DNA of 63,627 nucleotides, counting the filler, from Hausera hauseri (lineage: Eukaryota), in assembly GCA_046269625.1 (NCBI GenBank). It is 12 parts of 12 records of this genome, joined end to end, with 100 filler letters (N's around TTAATTAATTAA, not from the genome) between each part and the next. Parts side by side here need not be neighbours in the genome. Positions count along the whole stretch, not along the records: positions 8,973 to 13,517 come from JBJURY010533343.1; 11 more parts are not named here. One strand, 5' to 3'. How positions within the stretch are numbered: position 1 is the stretch's first letter; every line of letters starts with the position of its first letter. Shown here piece by piece: positions 2,276-62,200 of the stretch. The notes beneath the pieces are model-generated. The model searched no databases and had not been told where the DNA came from. It saw only the letters and a program-made list of their open reading frames with translations. Made by a program: the position numbers and the translations under genes.

Positions 2276-2352
2276 ATGTTGTGAATTGAGTTTGTTGAGA
2301 TTGGAGAGACGAACGAATGACGGTTGTTTGAATTCTGACTCGGCGAAGAATT

Positions 2353-3198
2353 ATGAAAGAGACAAGAAAGATTTGCAAAGTTCAAAAATTGAAAGATCTC
2401 CGATCAACAAAAAAGGTCAAAATTGAGAGAGCTAATTTTATGTGCTTGATAAATCAAAATCTTAACGATATTCAGAAAATACGGCTTAAATGTCGGCATA
2501 GACTTCTTGAAATCATCATCGAGGACCATCATCGAAAATTATCGATAAAAGAAAGCGGTTATAACAATGACAGTAACATGGAAATAAAGATGACTAGGAA
2601 CGACGACAAAGATAAAAACAACGATCTATTAATGAAGAACGATCAGTTGAGTTATGACAATTTTATTCTATGTCAGATGATTAATGTGATCCGAGCGGTG
2701 CTCTTGAGAATGTTAACGGCTCTCATTAGAGCCACAATTACTGATTACGATGGGGTTCCGGATCCCCTTAAAAAATCCATAACAATCATTATATTGATAA
2801 AACCAATCCGAGATTACAGAAGCATAACCGAATTATACCTTACTGGTCGGGTAAACAATCTACTCTACAATCGAAGGACCGCTGGACATGGAAAGCATGG
2901 AATCACTGATATCACATTTGAGAATCGAACCAGCAAAGATGAGATCGAGGAGATAATATCAAACAAAAGAAAGGTCAGTTATTCTACATTGCTGTATATA
3001 TTATCGTTACCCGTTTCTGCTCCCCGCCTCAAACTTCCTTTTGGTGATTACCGTAATAAAACTTATTGGGGGAAATTGTCTCGCGTTTATATTATCGTTT
3101 TAAGCCATTTAATAATAAACATAAAAATAAACCTACTCTACTTTGAGAATTTGTCTTCAAAGGTAATTACACAAAACATTGAATTCGACATCTCATAA
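2353..3198 (+). CDS. Unassigned ORF, 281 aa, probably a chimera of fragments
   Basis: ORF track only; no recognisable motif. Confidence 0.2.
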   Translation: MKETRKICKVQKLKDLRSTKKVKIERANFMCLINQNLNDIQKIRLKCRHRLLEIIIEDHHRKLSIKESGYNNDSNMEIKMTRNDDKDKNNDLLMKNDQLSYDNFILCQMINVIRAVLLRMLTALIRATITDYDGVPDPLKKSITIIILIKPIRDYRSITELYLTGRVNNLLYNRRTAGHGKHGITDITFENRTSKDEIEEIISNKRKVSYSTLLYILSLPVSAPRLKLPFGDYRNKTYWGKLSRVYIIVLSHLIINIKINLLYFENLSSKVITQNIEFDIS

Positions 3199-3359
3199 TA
3201 TTTCATTGTACCTATATCGCTCCAGACCTATATTAACATTACAACAGATGGTTGGAAAAATTAAATACAAGACAAGTAACCAACTGCCTGTTGGGCGGGT
3301 TTGTCCGTTAAATAAATATATAAATAAAAGAATTTTGTATTTATATTTGAGGAACTGTA

Positions 3360-3952
3360 TGAGTAGGTTCGTTGCGTTGTCACCAGATATTCTTATCATT
3401 CTTTATAGTGGAAAAATTGTAAATATTTATAATAATACAAATGAAATGATAGCTTTTTGCGAAATTATGACAAACCATACTTGGAGAAAGCCCATTGTTG
3501 TTAAATTAGATGAGTTAAAAACTTTAAGTTTTATTCTAGCGAAGTATTACTCATATAGAGATTACATGTACCATTTAGAACCAGATGTTTTGAATTCTTT
3601 TCTAGGAAAAAGATACCTACGACCTAATGGTGCTTTAATTTCCATTGGGAAACTCGTTATCGGAATTGGCTATGCCAGCCAACATATGCCAAGGTTAATA
3701 GATCAAAAAACTGTCGATGTTGTTGTAGGATTTATTAAAGATGTTGTTAACTGCATGTGGAACTATTTGGGATGTAAAGGAGCAACATATACCAATAAGA
3801 ATGTTTTATTTAAGCAAGTGGATGAAGCCGATGAAACAAAATCAAATCTATTGGTAAAGTGTTTTATAAGAATTATGGAAAACAAGTTAGGGATCAAGCT
3901 ATCGATTGATGAAATTCTAGTTGCTATTCAAAAGATTGTTATAATAGTTTAA
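3360..3952 (+). CDS. Unassigned ORF (ATG near 3359, about 197 aa), globular-looking orphan
   Basis: Long open frame in AT-rich DNA with ordinary composition; family not recognised. Confidence 0.35.
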
Positions 3953-8972: not shown

Positions 8973-9152
8973 TTCATCTAAATAGAGAGGTATTCTACTG
9001 ATATAGGCTTGTTGGTCAACACCTAATCCTTCGCTTAATAAGCGATAAGTTTTTAAACACTTAAGTAAACCGGCCGGGTCACTGTATATTTTTGGAATAT
9101 TCAAAGTCTAATGTATAGTTAAGTTAATGGGTTGCTGTGTGGCTTGTGCCAT
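8973..9152 (-). pseudogene. gag: Gypsy gag N-terminus, truncated by contig end
   Basis: MAQATQQPINLTIH*TLNIPKIYSDPAGLLKCLKTYRLLSEGLGVDQQAYISRIPLYLDE, downstream of LTR and PBS; capsid-like LPLYL motif. Confidence 0.55.
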
Positions 9153-9787
9153 TTCGTTTTGTAAATCGGGATATAGTAATGTGAGATTTAAAGATTCTAG
9201 TGCTATTACTAAATCTTTAAGTTCTAGAAGTTGGGTGGAGTCGACAGTGGCGCGTTTAATAGGATTTCATTTTGTTTTTCTGGGTATATTTGTGTTTTAA
9301 CTTTAACCCTGTTTTAGAGAAAAGTCCTGCTAGGGTCGCAAGAAATGTTGGTTCTCTGTCCAAAATTTCCACTTTACACGAAAGTTTTATTTGGATTCTT
9401 GTCTCTTTTGCTATTTGAATTTTATCCAAATAGGAACGTCCGTAGTTTTATTGCGTTATAGCACAAATCTTTTGCTGATTGTTTTTAGCAAAAATTATAT
9501 AAATCAAATTGGTAATGTTGTTAGTAGTCCTATGTTGTAGTATGGAGTAGACTTTAAGAAGAAGATATTTGTAATCTTCTTTCGATTTAAATGCCAAATA
9601 GGCAGAGCAATTTAACTCTGGCCTTACTGAAAACAATGGAATTAAATAGTATTTTTTGGGTTGCTTTTTCTGTATTAACTTCCTTTATAAGAATTTTAGG
9701 ATTTCCAGTTTAAAGCAGACAGTTAATTAACCTTAATGTTTAAATTTATTTAGTTAATGTGTTCAGCGTTGGTCTACTATGTTTTCG

Positions 9788-9797
9788 ACCGCTGCCA
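9788..9797 (-). promoter_or_regulatory. Primer-binding site, tRNA-Leu type
   Basis: Minus strand GTAACA-G-TGGCAGCGGT: TGG-starting tRNA complement 1 nt after the LTR-terminal CA. Confidence 0.75.
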
Positions 9798-9798
9798 C

Positions 9799-10566
9799 TG
9801 TTACTTAGTGGTTAATAAATTAAATTATTTCAAACAAAGTAAATCAATTAAGTCGTGAAATAATTTTATAACGATGAACAAAAATAAACAAACCGAACGC
9901 AATGTCGACTGACAATGAATTAGTTTGTATTTGCAGTACAAGAGGAGATCGGGAAGAGGCTGACTCCACAATATCAAAATTGAAATTGAAAAGATTTCGA
10001 CTGATTCAAAAATCTCTGGTTTCACTGTCTTCTTTTATTTAGAAGCGTGCTACTCAGTTAGTTTTAATTTTTTGTCGTCGTTATTATTTTATCTTTACAT
10101 TATATAATAATTTTTATATCGGGTGGAAAACTTACAATACTGTAGGTGTTGTTCTAATTTTCTAGTAGGTGAGTGATTATCTGTGGGTGCTTTTTCGTTA
10201 CAGATACTATTAGTACATAAAGTCTGTGGGTGCTTTTTATTTACTATGCGTAAATCGTTGCAGATATTATTAGTGCATAAAGCGTAAATTGCTACCAATA
10301 TTGTTGTGAGTATTCTGTTGTGCGTAGATTGCTGTCAGTGTGATGATCTTGTAAATTGCAGCGGATATCATCGCTAATAATTTTACTAATTGAATGCAAA
10401 TTACTACGAATTGTTATCGTGTTTCGATTGAATATTGAATTGATTGTTAGACGTAAATTGAAACGTTAAATGCAAATTTCTATTGCATTTGGTTAAATTA
10501 ATTCGTGTTCCTTTAATTCTATTGACATTTTATGTTCTATAAAAATTTGCTCATTGTTCCTCAACA
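9799..10566 (-). repeat. LTR, 768 bp
   Basis: Minus strand begins TGTT right after a PPT and ends AACA right before a PBS; short internal repeats around 10180-10290. Confidence 0.8.
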
Positions 10567-10578
10567 TCTCCCCCCTTT
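10567..10578 (-). promoter_or_regulatory. Polypurine tract
   Basis: AAAGGGGGGAGA directly before TGTTGAGG. Confidence 0.8.
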
Positions 10579-10798
10579 AAAAGAAAAAATTTTCATTTCG
10601 TTTAAAAGGAAAAATTTTATCAAATTTAATCAAATGAGGTCGATTTTCTCGTAGCAAAAAAAATAAAATGTACATAAATATTACAATTTATCATAAAAAT
10701 ACAGAGTATGAAAACATAATAGATAAAGGAGTATAGACAGAAGCAATAATGAAATATATACAATGTAAGAATGTCCGTTCTTGATCCACTGGTTACTA

Positions 10799-12541
10799 TC
10801 ATATCTGGATTGTGATGAGTGTTTTGATTTGGAAATCAGTATTTGATTCTTGGACTGTAGTTATTCTGTATAAATTTTCCAGAATATAATTGTTCTTTGT
10901 TGCAAATAAGATCATTCTGATCTTGCTTTTATTCGTATTTTTTAATAGCAGCGGTCGGCCTCCCCTTGGTTTAGGAAGAGGTATGATATCCAGTTGTATA
11001 GGAATTGGTTGGAATGTAAGAATGGGCTTATGATTAAGTAGTTTAATAGATTCTAATTTTCCTCCAATTAATGCTAGATGGAGGGTATTGTATATTGTAT
11101 TTTTATATACAATACCAATTGGAGTTCCAAAATTATTATTTGGAACCAAGAGACGATTATTTGTGATAACTGAAACAGGTTGTGGTACATATCTAACATT
11201 GATACATTGGCTGATTTGTCCGTATAATAGCATTGATAGTTCCGTTTGAGGTTTTGGTTCTATGTTTTTGGGTATAATATCCGTACTTTTCTTCAATTGT
11301 TCGATTGGAGATAATTCCTTATTTTGAATCTTTTCATATCTATAATTTTCGTGGTAAGATGATGGTATCTTTGGTAAACTACCATAATCAATTAAGTTAT
11401 TAGAGGGTGGTTCCCAATCATAGATCCACTTCTCGTTTGAGCAGGAATTTTCTATTTTACTAAATATTTGAATAATGCTTTTTAAAATTAATTCTGCTGT
11501 TTTTGGAAAACTATAATCAAAACCATACACCATTGGCATTTGAGTTAAATTTGGCTTAAGTCCCTCTTCCTGGAATCTTTGTTTGGTATTCTTTGTTGCC
11601 AATAAATCTAGTTTTCCGAATGTAAAATCTTCTGGAATTCGAAGGGCTTTAAGGATGGTGCTTGTATTAGCACTAATAACGAAATAGCCAAAGAGATATT
11701 GAATTATTTCGTTTCGAACTTCGTTTTCGTCAGGTGATTGCTGGATGATCTGCATGGTTAATCCGTGTATATGTTCATTGGTGTTGGCTATTCTTCTTCT
11801 TGGATTAATGAAGGACTGGTATATCACCAATTGGTTTTCGTCGGCAATAATAACCTCTATGGGTAGCGGGTCTCCATTAGAGGCATAGGCCAATGATACC
11901 GCTAAAAATCGGTAATTATAAGTCGTGGTTAATCCATAATTATAGATATTACTATTCGGATACTGATAGAAAACTGGTGAAGTAAATCCTGCTTTGTTGT
12001 CAGTATCTTGACATGATTCAATACCCATTACTACAGGGGTAACTAAAATTCGGAAATATAATTTAGTTTTCAATGCTATAGCCTTGATTTTCATTGTATT
12101 CCTTGATACAAATACTGAAATTCTTTCTGATAGTCCGTCATAATTATCAGAGTGGGCTCTCAACTGTATCTTTCCTTGGGCCATATGGATTAAAATTTTC
12201 TTAGTGGATTCTTCTATTTGTAATAGGTTTGTTAAATCTACATTGTATAAGGGTTTATCGAATTTTATTATTCGAAACGAACGGTTTGAGAGTGTATTAG
12301 TTTTCAGTGTATTGTCCAAGTATTTACACTCAGGATAAAGAATATCTGTGGATTCGTTTGTTAGTTCTGTTAAACGATTATAGAACTTTGTCGAGTAGAG
12401 ATTTCTCCTGGTATCATAAATTCGGATAAGATTTTTGTCATATAGTTCATTCAATGATTTATTCTTAATTCGGTTCATTTCATTTTCTTTTAAATTTTCT
12501 TGTACCGTAGCTTGTAATTTTCTTTGTTTAGTTTCACGCAA
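10799..12541 (-). CDS. 3' accessory ORF of LTR element with DEDDh (REX4/ISG20-like) exonuclease fold, catalytic acids substituted
   Basis: FLAVSLAYASNGDPLPIEVIIADENQLVIYQSFINPRRRIANTNEHIHGLT...SPDENEVRNEIIQYLFGYFVISAN...LKALRI (about 11480-11915) follows the RNase T/REX4 pattern; ends about 220 nt before the PPT. Confidence 0.6.
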   Translation of the reverse strand: MRETKQRKLQATVQENLKENEMNRIKNKSLNELYDKNLIRIYDTRRNLYSTKFYNRLTELTNESTDILYPECKYLDNTLKTNTLSNRSFRIIKFDKPLYNVDLTNLLQIEESTKKILIHMAQGKIQLRAHSDNYDGLSERISVFVSRNTMKIKAIALKTKLYFRILVTPVVMGIESCQDTDNKAGFTSPVFYQYPNSNIYNYGLTTTYNYRFLAVSLAYASNGDPLPIEVIIADENQLVIYQSFINPRRRIANTNEHIHGLTMQIIQQSPDENEVRNEIIQYLFGYFVISANTSTILKALRIPEDFTFGKLDLLATKNTKQRFQEEGLKPNLTQMPMVYGFDYSFPKTAELILKSIIQIFSKIENSCSNEKWIYDWEPPSNNLIDYGSLPKIPSSYHENYRYEKIQNKELSPIEQLKKSTDIIPKNIEPKPQTELSMLLYGQISQCINVRYVPQPVSVITNNRLLVPNNNFGTPIGIVYKNTIYNTLHLALIGGKLESIKLLNHKPILTFQPIPIQLDIIPLPKPRGGRPLLLKNTNKSKIRMILFATKNNYILENLYRITTVQESNTDFQIKTLITIQI

Positions 12542-13517
12542 ATCTCCAAAGTGAAACCCTTTCGTCTAATTTCAAATACTGATGTAGAAGATTTTGTAGT
12601 TTCCATGGTTTTAGTTAAAATGGGTTGTGATAGGATCCCTCTACTCATTGAATAGGTCAGGTTTGGTATTTGAAAACTGAATGAGCAATTAGTACTCGAA
12701 TTTATCATACGCAGTTGAGTTGGTATAACCTTGCGTTTAGGGTTAGGGACCACTGTTTCGTTAGAATCATTTGAACTATTTTCATTATCAGATTCATCCA
12801 AATCAACACTGATTTTCTTTGAGTGATCGTTTGGTATATTGTCATTTGAAAAATTCTGTTCATAATCTGGAGTATTCAAAAAATCCATTCTGCTAAAAGA
12901 GAAACAACTAGTATAGCAAGTCATATTTAATGGCTTGCTAGAAGGGTAGGAGGTTACCCTTCTATATTTTATTGGTCTTGTATGCTGCTGCAAATCTATT
13001 GGTTTAGATTTGCTATAGTATTGTGATATGTGTGTTAGTATTATTGTTCTAGTTGGTGTGTGTATTTTAGTGTGTTTGCTTTCGTCATTAGATATTTTAT
13101 CCCCTTTCACGGCCACTATCCACTCCACATTATAATTCACTAAGCAAATTAGGTTGGTTGTTAGCAACAAAGTTTTATTCATGATTGCTTTCTTTTTAGA
13201 GAATCTTTTTATTTCTAGTATTACGAAGGGTGTGGATATGGACAGCAGTAGTAATATTATGATAATAAAAGGAATTGTAATTTTCAACAGGTTTGTTTGG
13301 GTACTAGGCTCAGTTGTTAGTTGCAATGGGGTGTAATTTGGAAATTCCTCATGCACTAAATATTTTTCGGTTCTCGTTTGAGTTCGGGTTGCTTGATGTC
13401 GGGTTTTAGCATAATTTTGAGTAAAAACAATCAGGTATTCTTCATCAGGCTGAAGATCGTTACATCTAGTTATTCGCTCATGTTCTTTTATAACAGCATA
13501 TATATTATGGTATTTTC
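12490..13517 (-). CDS. 5'-truncated FN3-like plus transmembrane accessory ORF
   Basis: Frame stays open to the contig edge: ITRCNDLQPDEEYLIVFTQN, T/P-rich stalk, TM ITIPFIIIILLLLSISTPFVIL, basic KRFSKKK. Confidence 0.55.
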
Positions 13518-23639: not shown

Positions 23640-26600
23640 TGTAGGCTTTTTAAGTGGTCTTTGTGTGAATAAGACGTTGTATCCCTTCAGTGTTAATCAC
23701 CTTACTGTAGGTACTAAATGTGACTAATTTGAGATTTTTCAATGTCTTTGAATCTGGTTGCTCAGGTGAGTGGAGTAAAACAATGTTAGATTTCATTGTG
23801 TAAGGTGGTGTGTCTTTCAAGGACGAAGAAAGAACTGGAGGAGATGTANNNNNNNNNNGTAGGTAGGAGATCCAATTTTGGGGGTATCGTCTACGAAATA
23901 GGCAGGCTTAACGTTGTTGATATGCACCGATAGTTCATTACGGTCTTCAGAAATAATGGCATTGTAATAGTGCAATTGCACGAGTTTGTAGGGCCCCAAA
24001 TACCATGGTTGAAAACCGCACGGCGTTTAGTTCCTCAGCCAGACAAACTTTGCTGACTATAAATCGTCGGGTAAATACGTTTTATTATTATGTATTATTC
24101 TGCAGAATGAATCTTTGCTGATTGTAACAAAGTGATTCTGTGCCGTTTGGATAGCCTCGTCTGTAAGTGTATCTTTGAAAGCAATAAGCTCAAATAATGA
24201 ACGTGCGGGTGCTCTGAATAGGGCTTCCATAGGTAAACAACCTGTAGACGTGGAGGGAATGTTTCGCCAACCCAGTAGAACTAACGGAAGAATAACAGTC
24301 CAACTGCCATTGGATTCAGCGAGGATTCTCAGTAAAGTTTTCAATATTTTTTGGAATCTCTCTAGAAGGCCGTTCGATTGGGGGTGATACGGTGTTGTAT
24401 ATATACGGCTGATTCCTGCTGGGTTACCGAGTGATTTAAATAAGTTGGACTCAGACTGAGTACCTTGGTCCGTGATAATGAACCTAGGGTATCCAAACCT
24501 GCTGATTCAAGTGCGTATGAAAACGTAGTCTATTGTGTCCATGTTAGTATTCCGCAGAGAGACAGATTCTGGCCTTCGTGAGAAACGATCCATTATGGTC
24601 AAAATGAACTGATGACCGTTGTCAGGAGGGAGCGGGCCAACAAGATCTACATGTACGGACTTGAAACGCGATGTGCAAGGGAAATGATACAGTGATGGAT
24701 TCAGATGCTTGATGTTTTTAAATTTCTGGCAGGCCACACATTCTTTAACCCACGATTGCGCATCAGAACGCATAGACGGCAAAATTACCTGTCGGTGGAG
24801 CAAGCGATAGGTAACTTTAGCTCCAGGGTGATGTAGTTAATGTACGCCGTTGAATGACTGTTTTTGCCAGGCAGGAGCTAAGATTATTTTAGGCTGTCCT
24901 GCTTTGGACGTGTCGAAAGCCACGCCATCAATAATATTACAGGAATTAAAAGATCTAAGGATGTCTTGAGGTGGTTGGTTTTTCTGAAACTGGGTTAGAG
25001 TGAAAATAGGCCTAAAGTTAATTGAGCTTACTGATCTAGATAAAAAGTCGGCGACTAAGTTGTTAACGCCGTTGATGTGTTTTATTTCGAAATTAAATGT
25101 TGACAAGTACGAAATCTGCCGTTCTTATCGAGTAGAAGGATGTTTCTTCCCCATGATGCTTATTAAGGGTTTATGGTCAGTTTGTATGGTGAAACCCCGA
25201 GCAGTGAAAAAATGTAAAAAATGTTTGAAGGCAAGAACTGTCGCTAGTAGTTTTTGATCGAACGTGGTGTATCTGGTTTCAGGGGGGTGTCATTTTGCGT
25301 GAAAGAACGACAGAGGCTGACTTTCGCCTTTACGAATCTGGTGTAGTACAGCGCCTACGGCGGTAGTAGAGGCGTGTGTAATAAGGATAAGCTCAGCATC
25401 AGGTTTAGGGTATGCTAATATATCGACTGTTTTTAGGCCTTTTCTTAACTTATCGAACTTATTTAGCAGTTTGTGTGTCCATAGTATTGGCTGGAGCTTT
25501 TTTCTGCTACTGAGGTAAGCAAAAGGCGCGGTTAGTTCGCAGCAATATTGAACATACTTGTGGACGAAATGTAATGTACCCAGGAAGCTTCTCATTTCAG
25601 TGGTTGTACACGGTAATTGTACGTTTTTGAGGGCTTTGATACGGTCAGGCTGAGTAGACTGCCCTTCAGGATAGATAACGTGTCAGAGGAAATTTATGCA
25701 TCGTTTGAAGAAATGACATTTTGTAAAGTTTAGCTGGAGGTTGTATTGATGTAAACAGTAAAAAATGGATTGTAGATGTTCCTCATGCTGTTTGGTGGAT
25801 AAAGAAACAATTAGAATATTATTAATGTAAGGATGGGCTTAAGGAAGATCAGAACGAATTGCATCTATGTGACGCTGGAAAGTTTGTGCTCCATTCCGTA
25901 GGCCAAAAGGCACATATAAATTTTCGTAAAGGCCCAAATGTGTAGTAATGGCGGTTTTTTCGATATCTTCGAGTGCCACCGGGATTTGGTGATAAGCCTT
26001 GGCCAAGTCAATGGTGGAATAGATTGTGGTAGAATTGAGACGATGTAATATGTCTTTTATCAATGGTAAGGGGTACGCGTCCATTATAGTCAAAGAATTT
26101 AGCTTCCGGTAATTACCACAAGGCCGCCACGATCCGTCTTTTTTTTCATCACATGTAAAGGAGAAGACCATGGCGACTTTGATCGACGTACAATTCCGGA
26201 GCGTTCAAGGTCTGCGAATTTGGCTTCAACCGCCTGTCTGCGTCTCGACCTCAATAGTCGTACCTTTTTACGAATGGGCCTTTGGTGTTGCATAATAATG
26301 TGGTGTAAAGTGCCATTTTTGGTGTGAAAGACTTATCTTTTTTAAGTAGGCGAGTGCATGACGGATTAAGGTACCTTTGAAGATTTTTCGGCAATTGTGA
26401 AAGATCAGGCGGGAGCCATGTGGTACTGTCATTAATAGTAGAAATTTGAAAGTTACTCGGTGTCTCAATACCTGGAAGTATTTGAGGTAGATTGGATGTG
26501 TTGAAAAATAAATCTGAGATAGTGATTTTATCCTATGTGTGTACTCTGGTGACGAAATCGCACTTGTGGTGTTTAATCTTGCTTTGTTGTCAATATCGTA

Positions 26601-28100
26601 TTTTATTAATTTACGAAATATCATGATTATGTAAAATAACCGGTTTATTAGTTGGTATTTTCAAAATTGACTTCCTTGTGATACTCGTCCGTGCGACGGT
26701 TGAAATGCTATTTATCTTTTTGGTCTGATTTTTATTGAAGGTACTTTTCAAACAACGTTGTTTACAATCTACTAGAAGATTGTAGTGCGACCGAAAATCG
26801 GATTCAAGAATTGCTGTCTGACATTGGCGACTGTAAATATCCAATGAAACTCGGAGGAGAAGTTTGGCAAGGTGAAGGAAAGTTTAGAAGTTCGGAAAAT
26901 ATGCAACGGTTGTCCGGAAGCTGTAAAAAAACATTTTACTTTAGATATAACGTTTTGAACGGTAAAGGTGTGCGGTAGAAGTTTATATGTTGAGGCGTCG
27001 GTGCGATGATAGAAGCTTTTAATGTGAACACAGCGAAAGAAAATTTTCGGCTATTAGAAAGTGAAGAGTGGCCTTCTCCAGTGCTTGCCGAAAGCTCTGG
27101 TAGCGAAGTTAGTTTTTTGAAAGCGGGGAATCTGGGCGGCTGTTAGTAGCGAGGGTTGTACGTTCGTCATTTGCATGATGATATTTGTTTCTAAAAGTGC
27201 AACCTGGAATGCATCTGCGTGCATTATGTCTGAATTTTGCATGATATATGCAAACGACGTTGTCTGTGCGATATTTCTTGTTATAAAATTTGCATCCTAG
27301 GTGGCATTTGTGTGCACTATTATCAAACCTACCATCATAATAGCAAATCAGTGATCGTCCAGTTGAAGGTGACCGACCACGAAATACAGAACGGTTACGG
27401 TCAGGTATAAAACCTGTTCGTTTTGTCAGCGAAATTTTATTTAATTTGTTATTAATATTATTAATTGTTGTCTGTAAGGTCGCATTTTCAGCCCGTAGTT
27501 GATTTAATTGTTGTTCGAATGCTACAAATTGTCGAAATATATCTAACAAATCATGAATAGACGTTTTAACTGCTGTCGGTAAGAGACAAAGTAAGCTATA
27601 AGCTTTGGCTGATGGATCGGTGATGCCACTGGACTTCAGCCAAAGTTTATAAAAATTAAACCATATTTTGTTTGAATTTTCATGATCTATAAAATACTCA
27701 GTGCATTGGGAAGAAGTATTTTTTAGATTGCAGAGTGGTGGTAAAAGTAGTCATGTTGGATGGTGTGATGACAGTCGTTGAATTCTGAGGAAAAGTGGCG
27801 GGTATTGGTGTAGTGGAGGTTTTGTCCGTTGTATCAATTGAATGGGAAGAATCCATGCCACCACGAATACGAATACATGGATAACGAGATGTGGGGTTGA
27901 AGAAAAGGAAAGATTGTGAACATTGGCTTTAACTAGTCGTAGATAATTAAGGGCGAGGTAAAAGTCGGAGAATGTAGTAAAGTGTTGTATATATTTGTGT
28001 AGGTACAGTGCGTCTATATGATATGTTATATTGTGTGTCAGTATTTGGGAGTTATTTATTAAAAAAGAAAATGAGAGGGGTGTCAAAGACCCTTGCAGGC
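23640..28100 (-). mobile_element. Decayed Gypsy gag-pol related to the 13719-16300 element
   Basis: Gag with two CxYH/D..F...A..C...C.F motifs (27109-27549); RT RPCGNYRKLN, PFGLRNGAQTFQR; RNaseH ASTTAVGAVL; IN HVDLVGPLP, YHPQSNG, GPY; C-terminal VTFSTYS shared with about 16735. Confidence 0.92.
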
Positions 28101-29869
28101 GATGCCCTAACGACAAGGACGGTGGTGAAGAACCTAGTGATATAGGGCTGATGGCCGGGCTCTCGTTCCTATAAAAATGCCTCTGAAATTTCGGGGTGGC
28201 CAATTCCTCCGTGTCGAGTACGGTCCAAAGAAGGGTGCTAACTTTAGCAGCGTTTATTAGAGAAGTAGATGCTAGATGTTTTTGAAAATTCTCTAATTTA
28301 TATTCACTTTTTATTGGCATTGGTCCTGTCATATTCAACGGTTCAGAAATGGAAGGGTTTGGACGTTGTATAACTTCGGTTTCGAATTTCTTTACCTGTT
28401 CGACGATATTGAGACGGAAGGTGTTTGTCATTTCCTTAAACGGCCGATTACTTTGAGATTTAACCTTTTGCTTAAAAGATGGATGTAAAACAATTTGGCG
28501 ATTGTGAACGCGGTCTGCCATTACAATACTGTTGTTATATTTGGTATTTGTGCGGTTATAGGCTGTTTTAAAGGTTTCAATAAAGTAGTTCAAATCAGGG
28601 TGTAAAGTGGTGTGTTTTAGAACAATTCGGAAAGTAGTCGTCGATGGTTTATTAATTGATAATGCGATCTGAATTTGTGCCGTGGTATGTGTCACGAATG
28701 TTGCAAAACAAACATCGATAATATTTTCGTCTTTCTGAAACTCCAGTGAGCCAGGAAATTTTATAAATTCAAGGGAATTTCCGATTTTCGATGATTCTAA
28801 ATAAAGGAGCGAAAACTGTGAACATTTCCGTATTGAGTGACAGTTAAATTCACGAAAAGCTTTGATGATACGTAAATTAGACAAAAAGGTCAAATAGGTC
28901 CTATTGAAAAGGCATTTCAATGGTATCAAATAACTGTGATAACAAGAAATAGCTTTGATATTTCTAGTTGCTATAAATAACTGGATTTTATCATTTATTT
29001 AAATTAGAAGGTAGGCGATTTCTTCCTGAGTGAATATGTGAGCGTTTTCTAACTTGTCGTGTTGTTTGGATACTTCAAAGATGTGGATCATCGAGGTTAT
29101 CTGATAAGGAAGAATAAGCCTCCGCCTTGGCATATAACTGTGGAGCAAATGAGTTCAGCATCCTTCCACATGCCGTCTGGACTTTATTTTGAACTATTAA
29201 ATGAAAGTGACTTTTTATTACTCGAAACATTTCAATCGTGACCAAAAACGCCAGCAATGGTTTAATTAAATCATACTCTGACTGTGTTGAATAATACAGT
29301 AATTTAATAGATGCATATTCTAATGGTTCGAGTTTGCTTTCCTCAGTCATTGGCGAGTTCGCACGAAATGATTCTTGTTAAATTGTTGAATATAAATATG
29401 TCGAATGAAAGTTCGGCTGAACAAATCAGAATTTTTGTGAAGGTGCAATTATATTGGTCTTCGCTTAGACCGGTCAGATTGTTACGGATTAGATGTGGTT
29501 TAGCGTAACATGTAAAAGGTTTGATATTATAAGGTTCCTTTGTTTCCGGGATATAAAAATTAGTGGATGCATCACAGGCTATTAAATCGTTTCGAGGAAG
29601 TAAGTTCAATGTAACGTTACTAAATGTACTTTCTGTTTTCATACAATACATCGTGATATCTTCGATTCGTTGACGAGTGACTTGCAGATTCGATGGAAAT
29701 ACTAATAAACTGCAAGGAAGGATTTAAAAAGATTTGTAGGGTATTTTATAAGAGGCATGAATAATAATATGATTTAGCAAGTCGTCTTTTTGTGTTTGAC
29801 TGAAATGGTTGGAATTGTACAAATGAGAAAGTAGTAGGAATGTTTTCAGGAATTCAGACAATAAAATAA

Positions 29870-30610
29870 GGTTATAGAAAGCGTATTTGCGTTTCATATC
29901 AACTTCATCCAATTTCGGTGGCATTTTTAAAGATGAGTTCTGATCAATATTAAATGTAACAAGAGTTTCGATTAGAAAATCAGTTGCATCTGGAAGCGTA
30001 ACAAGACGATTCATTGGTATATTCAGATGTTTTAAATGACATCCTCGATATAAGCTTTTAGGAATGTTCTCCAGAAGGTTTTCTGAGGCACTGAAAACTT
30101 CCAAATTTGACAATTTCCCAATACATGGTGGTATGCCATTAAAAGTTAATTGATTACTATCAAAATAAAGCTTTTTGAGCTTTGAAAGACGTGCAATAAA
30201 CGATAATAAAACACTGAATTGATTGCGACTAAGATTGAGAACTTCTAAATTTGGCCAGCAATCGACCAGGCTACTGAGTTCATTGAAGGTATTACCACTC
30301 ATATTCAATCTGATCAAACTAGAAATTTCGTAAATTGTCTGGGGAACTTTTGGCAAACTATTTTCGGAAATATTAAGGTCCGTTAAAAACTGAAGTTTAT
30401 CAAGGTCTGATGGAAAATTATCTAATCGTCTATTTGTACATGAAAGGGATAATGTGGTTAACTGATTCAAACTGATGACGGATCGAAGCTGCGATACTGA
30501 TAACGGATTATTATTAAAAGATATAATGACTGCAAATTTGGCATTCGTCTAAGGTTTGTGGGAAATGAATCTATATGATTATTGCATAGATCTAAAAGCT
30601 GTAGACACTG
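29870..30610 (-). pseudogene. FLII: Intronless Flightless-I LRR-domain fragment
   Basis: WPNLEVLNLSRNQ..., LSKLKKLY...NQLTFNGIPPCIGKLSNLEVF, NRLVTLPD...FL, LKMPPK...FYN follow the FLII LRR C-half; gelsolin domains absent. Confidence 0.82.
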
Positions 30611-34119: not shown

Positions 34120-36638
34120 AGGAAAACCCTTCGCCAAAATCCTTATTGAAGACTGGGAAGTTTATGCATTAATCGATATAGGTTACGAAATCTCTTACAT
34201 TAAAATTGATTTAATACCTCAAACGCTGAGAGGACAGTTATACCCACCATCCGCAAGAGATCCCGGAAGCACAGGACCTTTCGGTCAAATGTCAAAGCCG
34301 ATGTTCAAACGGAACCCGGAAGTTCAAATAGTTGGACAGTTTTTCCATCACGAATTTGCAATTATGGAACAATTAACCGACGACGTAGTTTTAGGATGTG
34401 ATCTACTGAAAAGACTACCAAATATAGCGATCGACTTGCATACTGGAAGGCTTATAGAGATTAGGCCGAATAAAGGCGTAAAAAATGAAAAAAACAGGAA
34501 AATTGGAGGTGTGGATTCCAGTAGATGAAAATATTCCACCGAGAACCGAAATGATAATTTATGCGCAGATTCAACAAGATGACGATCAGCTGGTATATTT
34601 TGAACCAAAAAAAACATCAAATCCGAATATAATACTCAGTAACATACTGACGAGAGTACATTCGGGTCGTAAATAATGCACTAGTAAGGATAGGAAATAA
34701 TGCACCAACTCCAGTTAAACTTCACGCTTACACCACTTTAGGAAATACGTATAGTGTCGTCTATAACTATCGAAGAAAAACCATACAAATATGCGGAATT
34801 TCCACCTCATGTTGAAACTAAGTTTTCACCTGAATCTTATTGTCGATTCTGTGAACTATTATATCGTTACAAATCAATCATCGCTAAAGACGACAAAGAT
34901 ATCGGTAGAGCAAAAGCATTTAAATTGAGAATCCCTCTTAAGAAGCCTGTTTCTAATGAAGAAATAGATCTTGAAGATCAAAAGATGCCGAAATGTATCC
35001 TCCGCCGCATTCATTAAGGCCCGAAATAACAAGGGGTTAAACGGATGCTTAAAGCTGATATAGTCAGGCCAAGCTATAGATCTTGGTACTCACCAATTCT
35101 GCATCGACTACATAGCATTGAATAATCTTGTGATGAAGGATTCTCTTCCATTGCCGTCAGTTAAAGAAACCCTAGATAGACTATCAGGAGCAACATGGTT
35201 TACCACTCTGGATTTACAATCCGGATATTGGCAAGTGGAAATAGAGGACGAAGATCCATATAAAACAGCGTTTAAAACTCACGATGGTGTCTATAAATTC
35301 AACGTCATGCCATTCGGTATTACTACCGGACCAGCAATTTTTACAAAAATGATGAACAAAATGTTAATGGGACTAGATCATGCTTTTGCGTACTTAGATG
35401 ATGTAATGATAGCGTCGAGGACAGAAGAGGAACACTTGAAGGATACTGAGCACACGCTGATGCGACTAGAACAGGCCGCATTGAAATTAAATCCGAAATG
35501 TAAATGGGCTCAAAAAGCAGTATCCTACCTTGACCATATAGTTGGAGAAGGAGGATCAAAACCGGATAAATCTTTATTGAACAAGATATCAAACTGCATT
35601 GAGCCACAAAATCAAAAAGAATTAAGACACTGGCTAGGTTTATGTGGATATTATGCTACCTGTGTGCCAGACAACTCAAAGATAAACGCACCATTATATC
35701 TTCTACTCAAAAAAGGGATTAAATGGAAATGGACAGACGTCGAACAGAAGGCTTTCGACGAAATGAAGATATTAACAAGTGAACCAGTTCGACGATATCC
35801 GGACTTTAACTTACCCTTTATAATCAAGATTGATGCTAGTAAAGAAGGTATTGGGTATGAATTAGCTCAAAAAAGAGAAGATGAAAAATTGGAACATCCA
35901 ATCGCTTATGGAGAACGTTCCTTGAAGGCCGAGAAAAATTATTCTGTTACTGAATTAGAAACTCTAGCCGTAAAAGAAGCGCTCCGACACTTTAACGTTT
36001 ATGTGTACGGGCAGAAAATCATAATTGTTACTGATCATAGAGCTGTCACGACCTTAAAAGGTCGAGCAAACAACCCGGCATGCAGACTAAACAGATGGAT
36101 CGAAGAAATTTCTAGACATAATATCGAATTCCAATATAAGCCGGGAAATAAACACGTAGATGCTGACGCACTATCCAGACTAAAAACTAAGATGATTTCA
36201 ATTACTGTTATGAAGAAAATTCAACTCAAAGAAATAATAGACCGCCAACGTGCTCTAACGTTGGATAAAGCAATTAAAATTTAAACAGAACAATAGAAGA
36301 ATAAAATTATTCACCGGATCATAGAATTTGCCAAAAAGGACACCATGCCAAAGGGACGGCAGCTAAACAAACATTTACACAGGCACGGGCATAAATACTG
36401 TGTCTTGAATGACAAAAGTAGTGAGAATATTCTATATTATAAGCGAAAGGGAAGGAAATTGATAGTTATTCCGAAACACTTACGAATTGAAGTTTTGATG
36501 TAGGAACATAATTAATATTTGGCAGGACACATGTCCTGGAAGAAAACATAAGAAAGAATATTGAATAAATATTTTTGGCCCACCATCTATATTGATGTAA
36601 AGAATTGGGTGAATGCTTGTGAAGTATGCGCAACTAAA
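34120..36638 (+). mobile_element. pol: Gypsy pol (PR-RT-RNaseH-IN zinc finger) directly downstream of env
   Basis: PR ALIDIGY (degenerate DTG); IPPRT region; RT LDLQSGYWQ, KTAF, MPFG, YLDD; RNaseH IDAS, ELETLAV, TDH, DADALSR; IN AGH...YFWP...C..C. Confidence 0.93.
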
Positions 36639-41134: not shown

Positions 41135-41692
41135 TTTAGTAACGCTATGAAACATCGCTTTCTGTATACGCATTTCGGTTTCGTAAAAATCCACTACTAC
41201 GATGTTTGATTCTAATCATTTTCCGGTATCGTATTCCGCACCGTAACAATGTCCATTGTGCATATCTAGTCTTCCTGCTGCCACTTTATACACTCTGATT
41301 ATTTTTCCCTGCTACATTTTTATTTTCATATCGTCCCATTTTATTCTTCCCGCTTTTCTAGCTTGCTTACAATGCTGTCTCTCCAAATTCATCGGGATTA
41401 ATGGGGTTGTTGGCTTAATTACTGACGAGTGCCCATGCACCAGTACATAATGGAAAATGCTGCGAGATCGCCGCAACATACATTCTACTCCATGCAAGGT
41501 AACTAGTTCGCGTTGATGACATAATATATAACTTTTCTCTTTTGTTTCTAATCTGTGGGGCCTCGCATTTTCGCACATTTTCAAGTCCATTAACAAATAT
41601 TTTTGGCCAAGTCTAAATTTGTCACAATCATATACCGTGACTGCGCCAATTTGCCTTATTAACATCATTATGGTAAAAAATTGATTAGCCAA
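41135..41692 (-). pseudogene. env: N-terminus of chuvirus-like glycoprotein
   Basis: Hydrophobic FFTIMMLIRQIGA then VTVYDC; ECMLRRSRSIFH, RQHCKQA, HCYGAEYDTGK; closely similar to 31727-32200. Confidence 0.8.
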
Positions 41693-41778
41693 TTCGATTC
41701 ATTTCCTCTGCGATTTCCAGTTACATTTCGTAGCAGATCTCCGAATCTATTGTTATCAAAGAAGAATCCACTCAAATG

Positions 41779-44700
41779 TTATTCCTGTTTTTCGAATAAC
41801 TTAGACCTGTTCACTTCTCGGGGTAGCTTCCTGGCAGCCTTCCTTGTCAAGCTAGTAGCCTTGTTAAACTCATTTTCTCGATTCGGATTGCTTTTGATGG
41901 CCATATATAGCAACACTTTTCTCAGTTCCTCTATGGTATTTTCTACCAAAATTTTCTCAATTATAATTTCATCGCTTAAAGTACTTTTGGTTAATTTACA
42001 CTGGAGGTTCTTTATGGCCTTGGCGGCGTTCGCTATGGCCTTCTCCTTCTCGTTTAATATATCACCATCGAGGTTAGAGTGGTTTACTATTCGTACCAAA
42101 TTTTTCATAAGTTCGTTCAGCTCCTCATTATCCGCATTAAAGGTTGGTATGGACATCTGCCTTAATTCTCTGATTAAGTCTCCATTATAGTCGATCTCCT
42201 TCCGCATTTTCCGTGGTCTGCCGACAGGACACTTTTGTTTTGTTATAGGAAGTACATTGATATCGATCGGTACTAAATTTTTATCATATTGCTCATTATC
42301 TTCATCTTTTGCAGGTACTCGAAATATACTGCTGCATCTCCGACTCCTATTATTCTTCCTACCTGTTGTTCGGCTTTAGCCTTCCTTATGGCCTCTTCTT
42401 TTGTTTCATTGATAGTGGTGGTTACCACCAACCGGTTTAATTCTCCTGGATAATTTTAACATCATCAATAATTCTGTCTCGTCTAGTATTCTTCCTCGGA
42501 AATAAAGTCTATAGCTCAGCTCATGGACGTATCCGTTATTCTTTATCCACAGTAATACATATTTTACAAGGGAGCGCGTAGTGAACTCTTGTTCTTTTCG
42601 TCCATCCAGTCCGATGCTAATTTTACTAGAATCGTCTCTTCTGCTTTTGCTTTTAGGATTTTGGCATATTCTTTGTGTAAACGCTTAGGTACTGTACTGA
42701 AGATCGTACCTTCACTAGCTAATTTAGTTAGAGTGGGGACTAACCGTCTTAACTGAATTTCAGTGAGATTTACCTCGATCAGCTGAGTTAAATTTTTCTC
42801 GGTTTGTGCTGGGTCCAGAATCATCCCTATATCGAACCTTTGGTCTGGAGAATATATCTCCATTTCGCCTAAGTATATTGGGGTTTTCGGATTCTCCGCA
42901 ATCATTGCATCTAAATAGGCCTCCCAATCTGGTTCATTTTTATTATCTGGCAGTTGATAGCTCCTCGACGGTATATCGGCTGGCCTGTCTACACCCGCGA
43001 GCTATGTAATTGCTCTGAGTTCTTGTAGTTTCTGTTGCATTTGGACCATTTTCGTCGTTCGGAAACATCGCCCATTAGCGGACGTTTGGTGGAGCAGTGT
43101 TAACATTGAACATAAATTAGCCCATTTTCTTGAAAATTTTTTAGTTCAGACGTGACATCTCTTTGCCATCTTTGCACGAATTGTGCCTTGTCCGCTTTTT
43201 CAGCTTCTGTAAGGGCGTATTTGTTTTTATACACTTCGAGTACTCTAGCTAGTTCGTCTAATCTTATCGCTCTCTGCTTCGTCTTAATGCAAATTTCTTC
43301 GACTTGCTGTATTTGTTGCAACAATTGTCTTAATTTACTGTCACTAATTTCTGCCATTTCCCCCATCAATAGCGCTAATTCGTATATCTCATTAATGCTG
43401 TTTGAATCTGGATCGATTGCATCTAATAATTTTTTACAAATTTGATCTCTTTGGAATTAAGGTTGCGGTCCTTCTTTATTTTAATTAGTTCGGCATAATG
43501 CCTTTGATCCGTTCCGTCCATCCATCCTTGTGGCTGGTGTAAGAATTTCACCGTTTCTTCAACAATCGACCGATTTTCGCGACAAAAGTCCAAGGTTTTA
43601 AGGTCTTGGATCGAGATTTCTTCAATAAGTTTAGCTGTCAACCATCGTATCCTTTCAGACCGACATATCTTAATCGCGGATAGAAATCGCAAGTCGCATT
43701 CCGTTTTCGAATAAAGTTTGTTTCATAGATCATCTTATATATATCATTTAGTATCATCGTTTCTTGTTTCTTTTCCATAAAATTCAATTGACGTAGCGTC
43801 TCGAATTGGGTTTGGATGTCATTTTCTGCTCTCATTGTATCTAGATTTCGGGCGTCTTTCTCTAATTGCTTCTTCACTGTAGGCTCACTCTCGGAAAATT
43901 CTTTTTTTCGATCGCCTACTAATTTACTCAGCCTCGTTATTATTTCGGACCATTCTTTCAACTGATTAGCGATTTCTGGCTTTGCCAGTATTGCTTTGTT
44001 CAAAAATTTGCGAGCGTCTTCTAGCTAGTCATCTAAACCTTTAATAAAATCGATGATCCGGTAGGCATAGTCAAACTCGTCCTTGTATTCATCGGACTCG
44101 AGGATACAAGTCAGAATTATTTTCTGCATTTTATTATTTGCCGGGTGCATGATCCTAGTTCTTATACTATATATCTGCGACCGTTTTTCGACTTCAATTT
44201 TAATACGATTCTCCAGATTTGCATATTGCTTGGAGGCCGTCGAAGCGATCTTTATCATTTCTGTTAAGGGTGAAATATCTATTGGTTCTATGCCCAACAT
44301 CTCTAAGTCGTTTGCATCTCGTTGCTCGACTATGATGAATCTAATTTCGTCCATGACACGCTCCAAATTACGTACTACTTTTTTTAATTTCGGGTTGGCT
44401 TCTAATATAGCTAATAACGACTGAGCCTTGTTGATCCTAGTTTCAATGTCTTGGGTAGTTTTGTCCCACGTCTCCGGAAATTTCGCCTTGCGTTTGATCC
44501 ACCGTTCTAATTCACGTTTCTACTGAACAAGTGTTTCTTTAGCCACTTTTTCGGGCTGATCTAGATCTATAGCTTCGCTTAGTTTTCCTTCACTACACAA
44601 CTTCATCTTTTTATATAGTCTGTCTACGAACTGCTGTTCCTTACCAGAAATATCAATTTGTTCGCTTATTGCTTTGAGCTTCTCTAGGTTCTGTCGTAAT

Positions 44701-45482
44701 ACCTCTGGATTGCGACAATTCATCCTCATTCTTTTTAACTCCTCTGCATTTTTCCACAAACGCCTTATCTTCCACTTTTTAGGATAAAGTTTCTCCTCTT
44801 GTTCTGTTTCCTCTTCGCTAGTGAGTAAAGGACATACGTCATTTATTTCATTTATAGATTTTGTCGGCTCATTCATTTCGCTTGGCGTAACTAAATTTAT
44901 TTCTGGAACGTTCGAGGCACACTCCGTGTCGCTTTTTAACGCGATTTCGGTTTCTCTCTCTATCTTAGATTTCTGTTTGATCATTGGGGATCTCGAACGG
45001 TCTTTACGTTTCCGTCTCAGTAATAGGCTACGGCCTCTATTTTTGGTAATTTTAAGTATAAATGGTTCGATATATTCTTCTTTTTCGTCCACCACTGCCT
45101 CCTTAGTTACCGTTTTTATAATATATTTAGGTTCTACATCCGAATCGGCTTCGCCTGTGGTCTCAGGCTTTTCTATTTCATCTAACTTTTTGTTTATTGT
45201 AAGAACGTTCTTTTCCCCTACCATATCACTGAGCCTTGGTGGGGCAATGGAACGTTCATACTCCGTTTCTGGTTCACGCAGGCCATGGTAAACTTCCATT
45301 AGTCGTAATTTGTGCTCATATTCGTTTCTAGCCACTAAAACTTTGGGGTCCTTGGTTTCAGGCTGGGCTTTTAAAAAACGCCGTAAATCCTGTATCTCGA
45401 TAATCATTCCTGTTTCTCTACGAACACCGTAAATTGCTTCTAAATTTTCATTTTTAATTACGTTAGTGTTACTAGGTTCCAC
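41779..45482 (-). pseudogene. About 1200-codon charged/helical region between gag zinc knuckle and env, decayed
   Basis: ORFs 44520-45482, 44025-44366 and 43638-44003 share one frame (single TAGs between them); four more co-oriented pieces follow after frameshifts. Confidence 0.7.
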
Positions 45483-45876: not shown

Positions 45877-46399
45877 NNNNNNNNNNNNNNNNNNNNNNNN
45901 NNNNNNNNNNNNNNNNNNNNTTAATTAATTAANNNNNNNNNNNNNNNNNNNNNNNNNNNNNNNNNNNNNNNNNNNNTATATATTGATGATAGACTGGTTC
46001 GAATTTAATCAATTGACTCAATGAATAGGTTTTGACATCCTTATTATCTCTCAGCGTAGAGATAAACAATTCATTCTTCCTCGGTCATTTCTTTCAAGTT
46101 ATTGGGGATTTCACCAGTCTGATTGTACTCTACATACGTACTCTCGTGCAATTTATTGCTGATTTGCCTATAAATAGATTTTGATTTGGGGGTAAACACT
46201 ATAAAGCATTTCTGTGAGAACTCGTCGATGCTACGACGCTCGGTTCCTATCTTCGTTATCGTTGTGGTACTTACCGCTCTAAATAATAAGCAATAATGGT
46301 TAATCATATAGCAAAGTATTCTTTTGAATTAAAACCAATTCTTTGTTTGATGATGGAATAAGTCGATCTGTATTTATCAGGTTATTTCACCATAGGTTT

Positions 46400-56314: not shown

Positions 56315-56330
56315 CTCAAATAATAAACTA

Positions 56331-59264: not shown

Positions 59265-62200
59265 ATTTCTGTTGGCAAAATAAGCAAAGTTCTTATGCTC
59301 AAAGCAACCAAGTAACTGAGCTAAAAACAAAATCTAGTGTCCACCTCCTTCCACTCTAACATGATTCATTCTGTTGTCGATAAAGAGGAAGAAGAATTGG
59401 AAGAATGGAAAGAGAAGAAATCTGAGTCATCTCTCTAAGAAAATAAAGAATGAACCCTGCTTGACTGGCATTTCACCCAGAGGTCAAAAGTGGATACACC
59501 TGCAAAATTTTCTTCAAATCTAACAAAGCAAGGGTGACAGAAGCGGATAACAANNNNNNNNNNNNNNNNNNNNNNNNNNNNNNNNNNNNNNNNNNNNTTA
59601 ATTAATTAANNNNNNNNNNNNNNNNNNNNNNNNNNNNNNNNNNNNNNNNNNNNATACCTTTGGACAATGAGTATACCAATTAAAACTTTTAAGGGAAGAC
59701 TCACAAGATGAGTCAACAGAGAATATAAGTGCTTTTAATAATAAAATTCAACAAATTTCTAAACGGGAAAATTGTCCGTCAATAAAGAAACCACCGGTTG
59801 AAAAGCCGACCAATCCTGAACGGCAAGATTGCCCGTTAACTTCATTTAGCAATAAAAATCGAATAGCTAAACGACAAGATTATTAAACAGATACAATTGT
59901 ATATTACTGTACAAAGATACAGAACGAAGTTACTAAATTTTTTACCACCCCTAAAAACTATAAATCAAATAAATGTACCTTTGTTTATACTGCTTTTCTC
60001 AAACCTTCTTGGCTAATATTTATTTATTTCTTTTTAGTTCGAGAAGGATTTGAGTTTGTGGACAGAACCAAGTCCTTTTATTTCAAAATCATCAGTAATT
60101 TAAACCAAACAGATATCAAAGATTACTTCTATTATGTCAAAGTGAATCTTATACCAAACAACTTAAAAGGTAATCTTCTCCATCAAAGCTCCGGATTGAT
60201 CATGAAACTACCCAATGCCTCTACGAAACTGTCAGACTTAATCGACATTCATAATTGAACTATGTCTGTCTTCATATCCGCAGCAAAAGAAAGTTTCCAA
60301 ATTAAAAGCCGAAACCATATAAATGATTTTATTTACACGCTGGATGTCACTCCCTATATGTTGGTGGTACAGGGGTTGCTATTATCAACCTTAAGCAGTA
60401 CCTAACATATAAATTCATAATTTTTATTTGTTGACAATTCATTATCTTTTCCTTATTCTAACTTCTTTATTCCTGGACACCATTCCAACAAATCAGGATT
60501 AAATATGTATTGCTTCTCAAAATACTTTACCTTTTGGTGTTTAACTAGAACTACATGTTGGTCCCAATAATCTGAAGGATTGTGAATTCACTTTTGTTCT
60601 ATAACTCCGTTTGCTCACTTCTTTTGTTACCTTTCATTAGTCCATAGCAATGAAATTATAATTTTTCAACAAAACTAAGCCTCCGATTCCAATATATTTG
60701 CATGATGCAAAACAAAAGACCATTGGTTACTTTACAATTTACTCCGATTCTATTACATTTGTTATAATTTGGGGAACCAGCCTAAATGTGGCAGAGGGGA
60801 ATCATCATCGGATAATGATTGGGGATAGTGGATAGATGTTAGTCGTGTGTAATTATACAATAACCTAAATAGTAATTGAAACGTAAAACCTGAGTATAAC
60901 ATCTTAGGACGCCAATTCTACCACGGCCATACCGTCATCTTTATCTCGAATGTAACGGTGCAGCCAAATAATACACACGCCAGGTTATAGTTAAAATACA
61001 CCTTATTATAAATGTTGTTTTTCATATTAATCACATAACATCATTAAGTTTAAATATTATTCTTCGTATTAATTACATAACGTATTGAGGTAATCAAACG
61101 CGGGGTCTTGACCAATTAAGTCAATCGGAAACAACACTTTCTTTTACAAAAATCCAAAAGGATTTGAAGTCAAGGTCGCAATAATCTCCGGTGCCAAATA
61201 GATTAAACAGTTAGGTAAAACACAGACCCATTAAATAAGGAAATCTACAGGATATTTTCATGCAGGATTATAAGGAATTCCATTAAGGTAATACAACTCT
61301 TAATGCTTGTGGGAAATTCGCTCGTGATCAACCCAATGTTCGACAGAATAAGTGATACATGATTCTCATTTATTTTCCAATTTCGCTTCGTTAAGTCATA
61401 AAACCTCATATTAACCATCAGTGAAATCTGTATCGAGTAAACCGTTTCACGAGACCGACTGTCAGATGTTGTACGAAGCATCACAATGATACTATAAGGT
61501 CAATCTGTCCCAAAGAAATCGTTTTTTAGAGTCGAATACATGGGGATAATTACATACCTGTATATAGAAAAGGTGTAAATAAACGTGGCAATTTGGGTTT
61601 AGTATAAAACTCTTCATTCCATAGAATAATAGGTTTAATATAATACGATATATATGCAACATCGAATTTCTAATATTTCGATACTTTCAGAATGCGGTTT
61701 AATTATTAAAACATAATTACTCAGGCGAGACCACTTTATAGTCATACAAACTGTTGCAACGAATCATGATAATAGATTCCGATCATTTTCAATACAACAT
61801 CGAGTTATGACAATATAAACATAATTGTTCGACTGTTGTGGATTGGTTGTAGTCTGGAATTTATACATTTAATTGACACGTGATTCTCTATCATGCAATA
61901 TGTGTTTATGTATATATCCACATATATAAAACGACCGCCGATGTAAATACACTGGTCCCGACCTCAACTGCACAAAGAAAATTCCTCGAAGAAGTGCAAT
62001 TTACTAACATGCTTATTTCCTATGTCATAGTTAAATATAGACATGGACATTTGTCATGAATCGTTATAAGACATAAATAGACGCACACATCCGCTATTTT
62101 GTCAACGTCATTCAGTTCCGTTGGTCGTAGGCGATTGATTTTAAAACTTGAATTTGCAATCATAACCAACCATTTCCGCCCAAATTGAGTGATAAATCGA

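What the first reader, a model, noticed from the sequence alone, without database searches (positions are those of the whole stretch)
10799..12888. LTR element 3' ORF with an apparently inactivated REX4/ISG20-like exonuclease domain
Seen: a 580-aa uninterrupted ORF ends about 220 nt before the PPT; an acidic segment from MDFLN (12888) may join it by a frameshift near 12545. The core follows the DEDDh pattern, but ExoI D-x-E reads S-L-A and the ExoII H...D reads A-N...I. Known: ISG20, REX4 and ERI-1 are DEDDh nucleases in antiviral and small-RNA pathways; arenavirus NP uses this fold for immune evasion. Inference: a retroelement-borne pseudo-nuclease acting as an RNA binder or silencing decoy.
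Basis: partly seen in the sequence, partly recalled or inferred. Interest (0 to 1): 0.75.

Follow-up and report, generated by a model that had tools for sequence, protein, structure and literature searches.

The report
Retrotransposon gene of two dead enzymes
A jumping gene of the LTR type carries a conserved extra gene whose RNA-trimming nuclease domain has lost all its catalytic residues and sits behind a second domain predicted to be a disabled AlkB-type oxygenase fold, so the protein likely binds nucleic acid for the element instead of cutting it.

The parts
10799..12565 (-). Accessory ORF (ORF4), 588 codons stop to stop, 559 aa from first ATG at 12478
11426..11917 (-). ISG20/REX4-like DEDDh domain, residues 217-380, catalytic sites read A222, S224, I304, K355, I360
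11990..12454 (-). N-terminal beta-rich domain, residues 38-192, predicted AlkB/2OG-Fe(II) oxygenase-type double-stranded beta-helix without a conserved metal motif
   Evidence: fold, low-confidence model; shared by all 7 family proteins; no sequence match to E. coli AlkB, no conserved HxD
10802..11425 (-). C-terminal 208 residues with no family match; not shared with homologs
12490..12888 (-). Acidic low-complexity segment from MDFLN, probable true N-terminus of ORF4; this copy is broken near 12545
12890..12910 (-). Splice-acceptor-like site (pyrimidine tract, two AG) directly before the ATG of MDFLN; ranks 1 and 2 of 70 YAG sites
13153..13515 (-). 3' end of a membrane-anchored ORF in the env position (hydrophobic segment about 13275-13219 followed by basic residues), cut by the contig end
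10567..10578 (-). Polypurine tract abutting the LTR
9799..10566 (-). Single LTR, 768 bp, TG...CA
9789..9797 (-). Primer-binding-site-like motif, same nine bases as at the inner edge of a cestode element reported to use tRNA-Leu
9622..9627 (-). Splice-donor-like GTAAG in the 5' leader (candidate only)
8973..9152 (-). Start of a gag-like frame, with an in-frame stop in this copy; no Pfam hit, resemblance to Ty3/gypsy gag judged by eye
45977..46279 (-). Degraded 5' part of a second family member (45-52% identical to P0001/P0004), behind RT-RH-IN and a membrane ORF in another LTR element
60037..60318 (+). Degraded third family member with acceptor-like site at 60037

Best explanation
This is an accessory gene at the 3' end of an LTR retrotransposon whose ISG20/REX4-like exonuclease domain has lost all five catalytic residues yet is conserved, behind a domain predicted to be a disabled AlkB-type fold, and the protein likely works as a non-cutting nucleic-acid binder that would protect or chaperone the element's own RNA or cDNA ends. 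Shown: position between a membrane ORF and the PPT-LTR; DEDDh fold; loss of catalytic residues; same loss in a cluster of distant homologs; purifying selection among copies. Predicted: AlkB/2OG fold of the N-terminal domain. Inferred: (1) the ancestor was an active captured exonuclease fused to an already metal-free beta-helix domain, as in P0003/P0005/P0006; (2) one branch lost catalysis but kept the substrate-binding part; (3) the gene is expressed from a spliced subgenomic RNA, not by frameshift; (4) it binds 3' ends of single-stranded nucleic acid and so shields element RNA/cDNA from host 3'-5' nucleases or small-RNA processing. Odds by step: conserved pseudo-nuclease 0.9; Ty3/gypsy-type host element 0.85; spliced expression 0.7; AlkB-type fold 0.65; nucleic-acid binding 0.55; specifically anti-silencing 0.25.
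Confidence: 0.5

Rival explanations
1. The two dead enzyme folds serve as a protein-binding scaffold or decoy for host factors (as inactivated prolyl hydroxylases do in poxviruses) and do not bind nucleic acid.
For: Top viral-library fold hits include poxvirus C4/C10-like proteins (ranks 1, 12, 25) and vaccinia C16 N-terminal domains; such proteins are inactivated 2OG oxygenases (10.1101/2022.11.22.517515, passages). One dead homolog, P0004, carries a RING finger (2.6e-7). DEDD domain charge is neutral.
Against: Invariant residues lie in the part of the DEDDh domain that is best conserved with active enzymes; the poxvirus hits are at 8-13% identity with high rmsd and may only reflect the shared beta-helix.
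Confidence: 0.25
2. The protein is a dedicated suppressor of small-RNA silencing that competes with a host ERI-1/Nibbler/ISG20-like trimming nuclease.
For: Closest folds are RNA 3'-end nucleases ISG20, ISG20L2, SDN1, ERI1; inactive DEDD derivatives act in piRNA biogenesis (PMC5408684, passage on Maelstrom and EXD1).
Against: It is a special case of the binder model.
Confidence: 0.15
3. The domain is still a nuclease, using a non-canonical active site.
For: E358 is near ExoIII and its register is unsure; three family members are intact.
Against: No acidic residue in the ExoI strand in any register and none at ExoII; both ExoI acids are needed for two-metal catalysis (established mechanism; PMC13659232 passage).
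Confidence: 0.05
4. The gene is a decaying remnant of a captured host exonuclease with no function.
For: This copy is broken near 12545 and in gag; the two other window copies are degraded.
Against: 588 open codons, strong silent-site bias among copies, and the same loss in proteins only 21-29% identical.
Confidence: 0.05

Closest known systems
DEDDy exonuclease ORF3 of bdelloid rotifer LTR retrotransposons Juno and Vesta, shared with Athena/Terminon elements (PMC5408684, passages read; PMC6431247, passages read)
   Same: Captured DEDD-superfamily 3'-5' exonuclease as an extra ORF at the 3' end of a gypsy-like LTR element.
   Different: Those are RNase D-like DEDDy with invariant residues intact (DEED) and replace env; this is ISG20/REX4-like DEDDh, catalytically dead in this branch, has a second N-terminal domain, and follows a membrane ORF.
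AlkB/2-ODD extra ORF of Phalaenopsis Gypsy elements (PMC9289625, abstract and section 12 read)
   Same: AlkB-type domain in an extra ORF of a Gypsy element; RNA binding shown there.
   Different: That domain is recent, recognisable by sequence and an active m6A demethylase; here the fold is only predicted, no metal motif is conserved, and it is fused to a DEDDh domain.
ISG20, ISG20L2, REX4-type DEDDh exonucleases (PDB 1wlj, 7yw5)
   Same: Best fold and profile matches.
   Different: All catalytic residues absent in the window protein; not a host single-copy gene.
DEDD pseudo-nucleases Exuperantia and PML PXL (PMC13659232, passages read); Maelstrom and EXD1 (as cited in PMC5408684)
   Same: DEDD fold without catalytic acids, kept for nucleic-acid binding: the working model.
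   Different: Host proteins; Exu and PXL use a SAM-like subdomain that is not seen here; no sign of specific kinship.
KolobokD DNA transposons with a DEDDh nuclease (PMC9587614, passages read)
   Same: DEDDh domain as transposon cargo in invertebrates.
   Different: DNA transposon; similar to Exu/TREX/ERI1 and assumed active.
Poxvirus C4/C10/C16/A37/F11/A51 inactivated 2OG-oxygenase domains (10.1101/2022.11.22.517515, passages read)
   Same: Exapted metal-free 2OG-oxygenase fold in a selfish element; among top fold hits.
   Different: No exonuclease partner domain reported in the passages read; similarity is fold-level only.

Membership tests
DEDDh 3'-5' exonuclease (ISG20/REX4, PF00929) | RNase H-like DnaQ fold | tested here: met
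DEDDh 3'-5' exonuclease (ISG20/REX4, PF00929) | Pfam RNase_T match | tested here: not met
   No hit for the window ORF; 3 of 7 family members hit, best 2.9e-6
DEDDh 3'-5' exonuclease (ISG20/REX4, PF00929) | ExoI Asp and Glu | tested here: not met
   A222 and S224
DEDDh 3'-5' exonuclease (ISG20/REX4, PF00929) | ExoII Asp | tested here: not met
   I304; silent variation at this codon in other copies
DEDDh 3'-5' exonuclease (ISG20/REX4, PF00929) | ExoIII His and Asp | tested here: not met
   K355 and I360; register less sure, E358 nearby
DEDDh 3'-5' exonuclease (ISG20/REX4, PF00929) | Nuclease activity | not testable with these tools
   needs an assay
AlkB / 2OG-Fe(II) oxygenase | Double-stranded beta-helix fold | tested here: inconclusive
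AlkB / 2OG-Fe(II) oxygenase | HxD/E...H iron triad and 2OG-binding Arg | tested here: not met
   1 of 7 N-domains has any HxD/E and it is not conserved; only conserved columns with H, D, E or R are one Arg, one His, one Glu/Asp. Motif definition recalled; E. coli AlkB
AlkB / 2OG-Fe(II) oxygenase | Sequence similarity to AlkB | tested here: not met
   hhalign probability below 1%, against a single AlkB sequence only
Ty3/gypsy-type LTR retrotransposon | LTR TG...CA, PPT, PBS | tested here: met
   only one LTR on this contig
Ty3/gypsy-type LTR retrotransposon | pol with order RT-RH-IN | tested here: inconclusive
   Not on this contig; seen in a second element that carries the same gene family
Ty3/gypsy-type LTR retrotransposon | Paired LTRs and target-site duplication | not testable with these tools
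   contig too short, no genome held
Bdelloid DEDDy ORF3 | RNase D-like DEDDy domain with intact acids | tested here: not met
   matches are DEDDh, acids absent (PMC5408684)
Programmed -1 frameshift | Slippery heptamer plus downstream structure, conserved among copies | tested here: not met
   Heptamer-type sequence in frame at 12559 but 70 of 820 random 75-nt windows have one; downstream fold z -0.46; contigs of both runs do not share the break

The most novel reading that the evidence does not exclude
An unrecognised fourth gene of animal gypsy-type retroelements, made from a spliced RNA behind a membrane ORF, in which two captured RNA-acting enzyme folds (AlkB-type and ISG20-type) were turned in two steps into a catalytically dead, two-part nucleic-acid reader that hides element RNA from host modification-sensing and 3'-end trimming; live and dead branches of the same family survive for direct comparison.
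Probability: 0.2. Interest if true: 0.82.

Novelty: new variant of a known kind. Interest (0 to 1): 0.58.

Why it matters
Animal LTR retrotransposons have few known counter-defence genes. Captured exonucleases (rotifers) and AlkB domains (orchids) are known as intact enzymes with unclear or RNA-modifying roles. Here a family exists in both live and dead forms, and the dead form is under selection, which shows that something other than catalysis is useful to the element. The pair P0003 (intact) and the window domain (dead) makes the open question of what such cargo does directly testable. No paper describing a DEDDh or AlkB-fold plus DEDDh accessory ORF in LTR elements turned up in my searches of the held library (judged from listings); Repbase-type annotations and subscription papers were not searchable.

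Tried and rejected
No whole genome held. Pfam gave nothing useful on the ORF or its parts. Word-based protein search with the ORF: 0 of 7999 candidates; with alignment A2: 1 of 7994, P0003 itself. Locus scans found no relative: metagenome contigs, viral contigs, genome contigs; so the context of P0001-P0009 is unknown. Single-sequence fold of the DEDD domain was unusable (pLDDT 41). Atlas search with the N-domain gave no usable hit, which shows neither absence nor novelty. No RNA holder listed, no evidence either way on expression. Depth was not used as copy number; the LTR is barely covered there and no listed contig bridges ORF and LTR, so 'present in other copies with the same LTR' was not tested directly. 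Silent-site test on the upstream frame was weak (7 of 15 listed rows). A fibronectin-III-like motif in the membrane ORF (recalled pattern) got no Pfam or PDB support. Programmed frameshift rejected. Papers read only in passages that added little: PMC6338049, PMC8297929 (closterovirus DEDDy), 10.1101/2024.09.25.615016. No supplements were opened; the rotifer paper's alignments are figures that I could not see. No complex prediction was run.

Full report
Setting. The window is a string of short contigs joined by N spacers, rich in broken retrotransposons. The finding lies on the minus strand of the 4545-base contig 8973-13517. No genome is held.

Observation. A frame of 588 codons without a stop runs 12565-10802; its first ATG (12478) gives 559 residues. 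At this composition chance is about 1e-20. The stop lies 220 nt before a polypurine tract (10578-10567) that abuts a 768-bp LTR with TG...CA ends (10566-9799); one base later comes a PBS-like motif and then a leader and a gag-like start. The same nine bases begin the inner region of a cestode element reported to use tRNA-Leu (PMC4558846, passages). One LTR between PPT and PBS means a tandem pair or a collapsed assembly; I cannot tell which.

The active site. P0003 has D175, E177, D257, H310, D315; P0005 and P0006 keep the same motifs. The window protein has A222, S224, I304, K355, I360 at these columns; P0002 and P0004 also lack all five, and P0001 lacks the two that its truncated sequence covers. 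The ExoIII register is less sure and E358 is near. A tree of the 7 proteins separates 4 dead from 3 live at 100/99 (27 of 500 label shuffles as low), but two dead rows are long branches and there is no outgroup, so a single loss is compatible, not shown.

Selection. Contigs of two public runs, on record as two organisms, hold the stretch; one may be the source sample. Laid on the domain at 80% likeness, 136 and 27 contigs gave 155 differing places, of which the tool listed the 40 best supported. Of these 40, 28 are silent against 0.295 expected from the same mutation types (p 1.5e-7), including silent changes at A222 and I304. Each difference was judged alone against the window codon, and 115 rows are unseen. 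The dead domain is therefore being conserved among copies.

Element layout and expression. The window holds two more family members, both degraded: 46238-45977 (45-52% identical to P0001/P0004) and 60052-60318. The first lies on a contig that reads RT (RVT_1 2.6e-8), RNase H region (by 76-78% DNA similarity to an element with Pfam RT_RNaseH hits), integrase (rve 1.4e-5), a membrane-anchored ORF, then this gene. The membrane ORF resembles the frame upstream of the finding (pairwise E 2e-4; 2 of 2000 shuffles as good), which also ends in a hydrophobic segment. So the layout is likely gag-pol-membrane ORF-ORF4-PPT-LTR, of Ty3/gypsy order. The proposed frameshift is not supported: the one contig per run listed across the junction differs in length there in both runs, in a way that fits an unbroken frame in those copies; a heptamer of slippery type is present, but 70 of 820 random windows have one and nothing folds behind it (z -0.46). 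By a simple pyrimidine score of my own, an acceptor-like site lies directly before the gene in all three window copies: ranks 1 and 2 of 70 (12893, 12890, just before the MDFLN ATG), rank 2 of 48 (46279; rank 1 precedes the membrane ORF), and rank 1 in the 650 bases scanned of the third (60037); a donor-like site is in the leader at 9627. Spliced expression is inferred; no RNA data exist here.

Mechanism. Most likely the element captured an ISG20/REX4-like exonuclease fused to a metal-free beta-helix domain, and this branch dropped catalysis while keeping the part conserved with active enzymes (P235, P255, R256, G268, D279). By analogy with Exu and PML PXL, which keep the fold and bind nucleic acid (PMC13659232, passages), it would hold 3' ends of the element's RNA or cDNA and shield them. 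The domain's neutral charge, the RING finger in P0004 and the poxvirus precedent (10.1101/2022.11.22.517515, passages) keep a protein-scaffold role open. Anti-silencing is possible and untested.

Known relatives and novelty. Rotifer Juno and Vesta elements carry intact DEDDy ORF3 genes (PMC5408684, passages); orchid Gypsy elements carry an active AlkB (PMC9289625, abstract and section 12); KolobokD DNA transposons carry DEDDh (PMC9587614, passages). Searches listed no paper on a DEDDh, dead, or AlkB-fold-fused accessory ORF in LTR elements (judged from listings; 3 papers hold gypsy, DEDDh and retrotransposon, none on this by title and abstract start). Earlier scan notes report other dead nucleases in retroelements (e1-7496230, e1-8581076), unchecked and not counted as support. 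Verdict: a real, conserved pseudo-nuclease cargo gene, a new variant of a known kind, function inferred.

Noticed in passing
window 45977-50620 (-): Degraded gypsy-type element with RT, RH, IN, then a membrane-anchored ORF (about 47700-46467) and a fragment of the same ORF4 family; its pol is 76-78% similar to the element at 35064-36281 (+).
   Followed up: partly
window 13515-13200 (-) and 46757-46467 (-): The membrane ORF in the env position has a short motif before its anchor that recalls a fibronectin type III strand pattern (recalled); no Pfam or PDB support. Its identity is open.
   Followed up: partly
window 60037-60318 (+): Third, degraded member of the family, closest in motif to P0002.
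   Followed up: partly
proteins P0003, P0005, P0006 (and P0007, P0009): Unnamed intact DEDDh proteins with the same N-terminal domain, on contigs of 14-25 kb; the likely active form of the family, context unknown.
   Followed up: partly
protein P0004: Dead family member with a long extension and a C3HC4 RING finger (Pfam 2.6e-7).
   Followed up: no
window 50721-56422 (-): Apparently uninterrupted gag (CCHC) and 1534-codon pol of a gypsy-type element with a long N/Q/R/Y-rich tail after the integrase.
   Followed up: no
window 56433-57512 (-): Uninterrupted 360-codon mariner-type transposase frame (Pfam Transposase_1 5e-23); hAT-like transposase fragments at 57707-58761.
   Followed up: no
window 29727-30548 (-): Intronless leucine-rich-repeat frame (Flightless-I-like by recall) next to a gag-pol region at 24060-28998; possibly a captured or retroposed host gene piece.
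   Followed up: no
window 41315-45659 (-): Cluster of lysine/glutamate-rich frames behind a CCHC zinc knuckle, possibly a very long gag-associated region; no family match beyond the knuckle.
   Followed up: no
window 2332-3949 (+): Two overlapping frames of 288 and 261 codons without any Pfam match.
   Followed up: no
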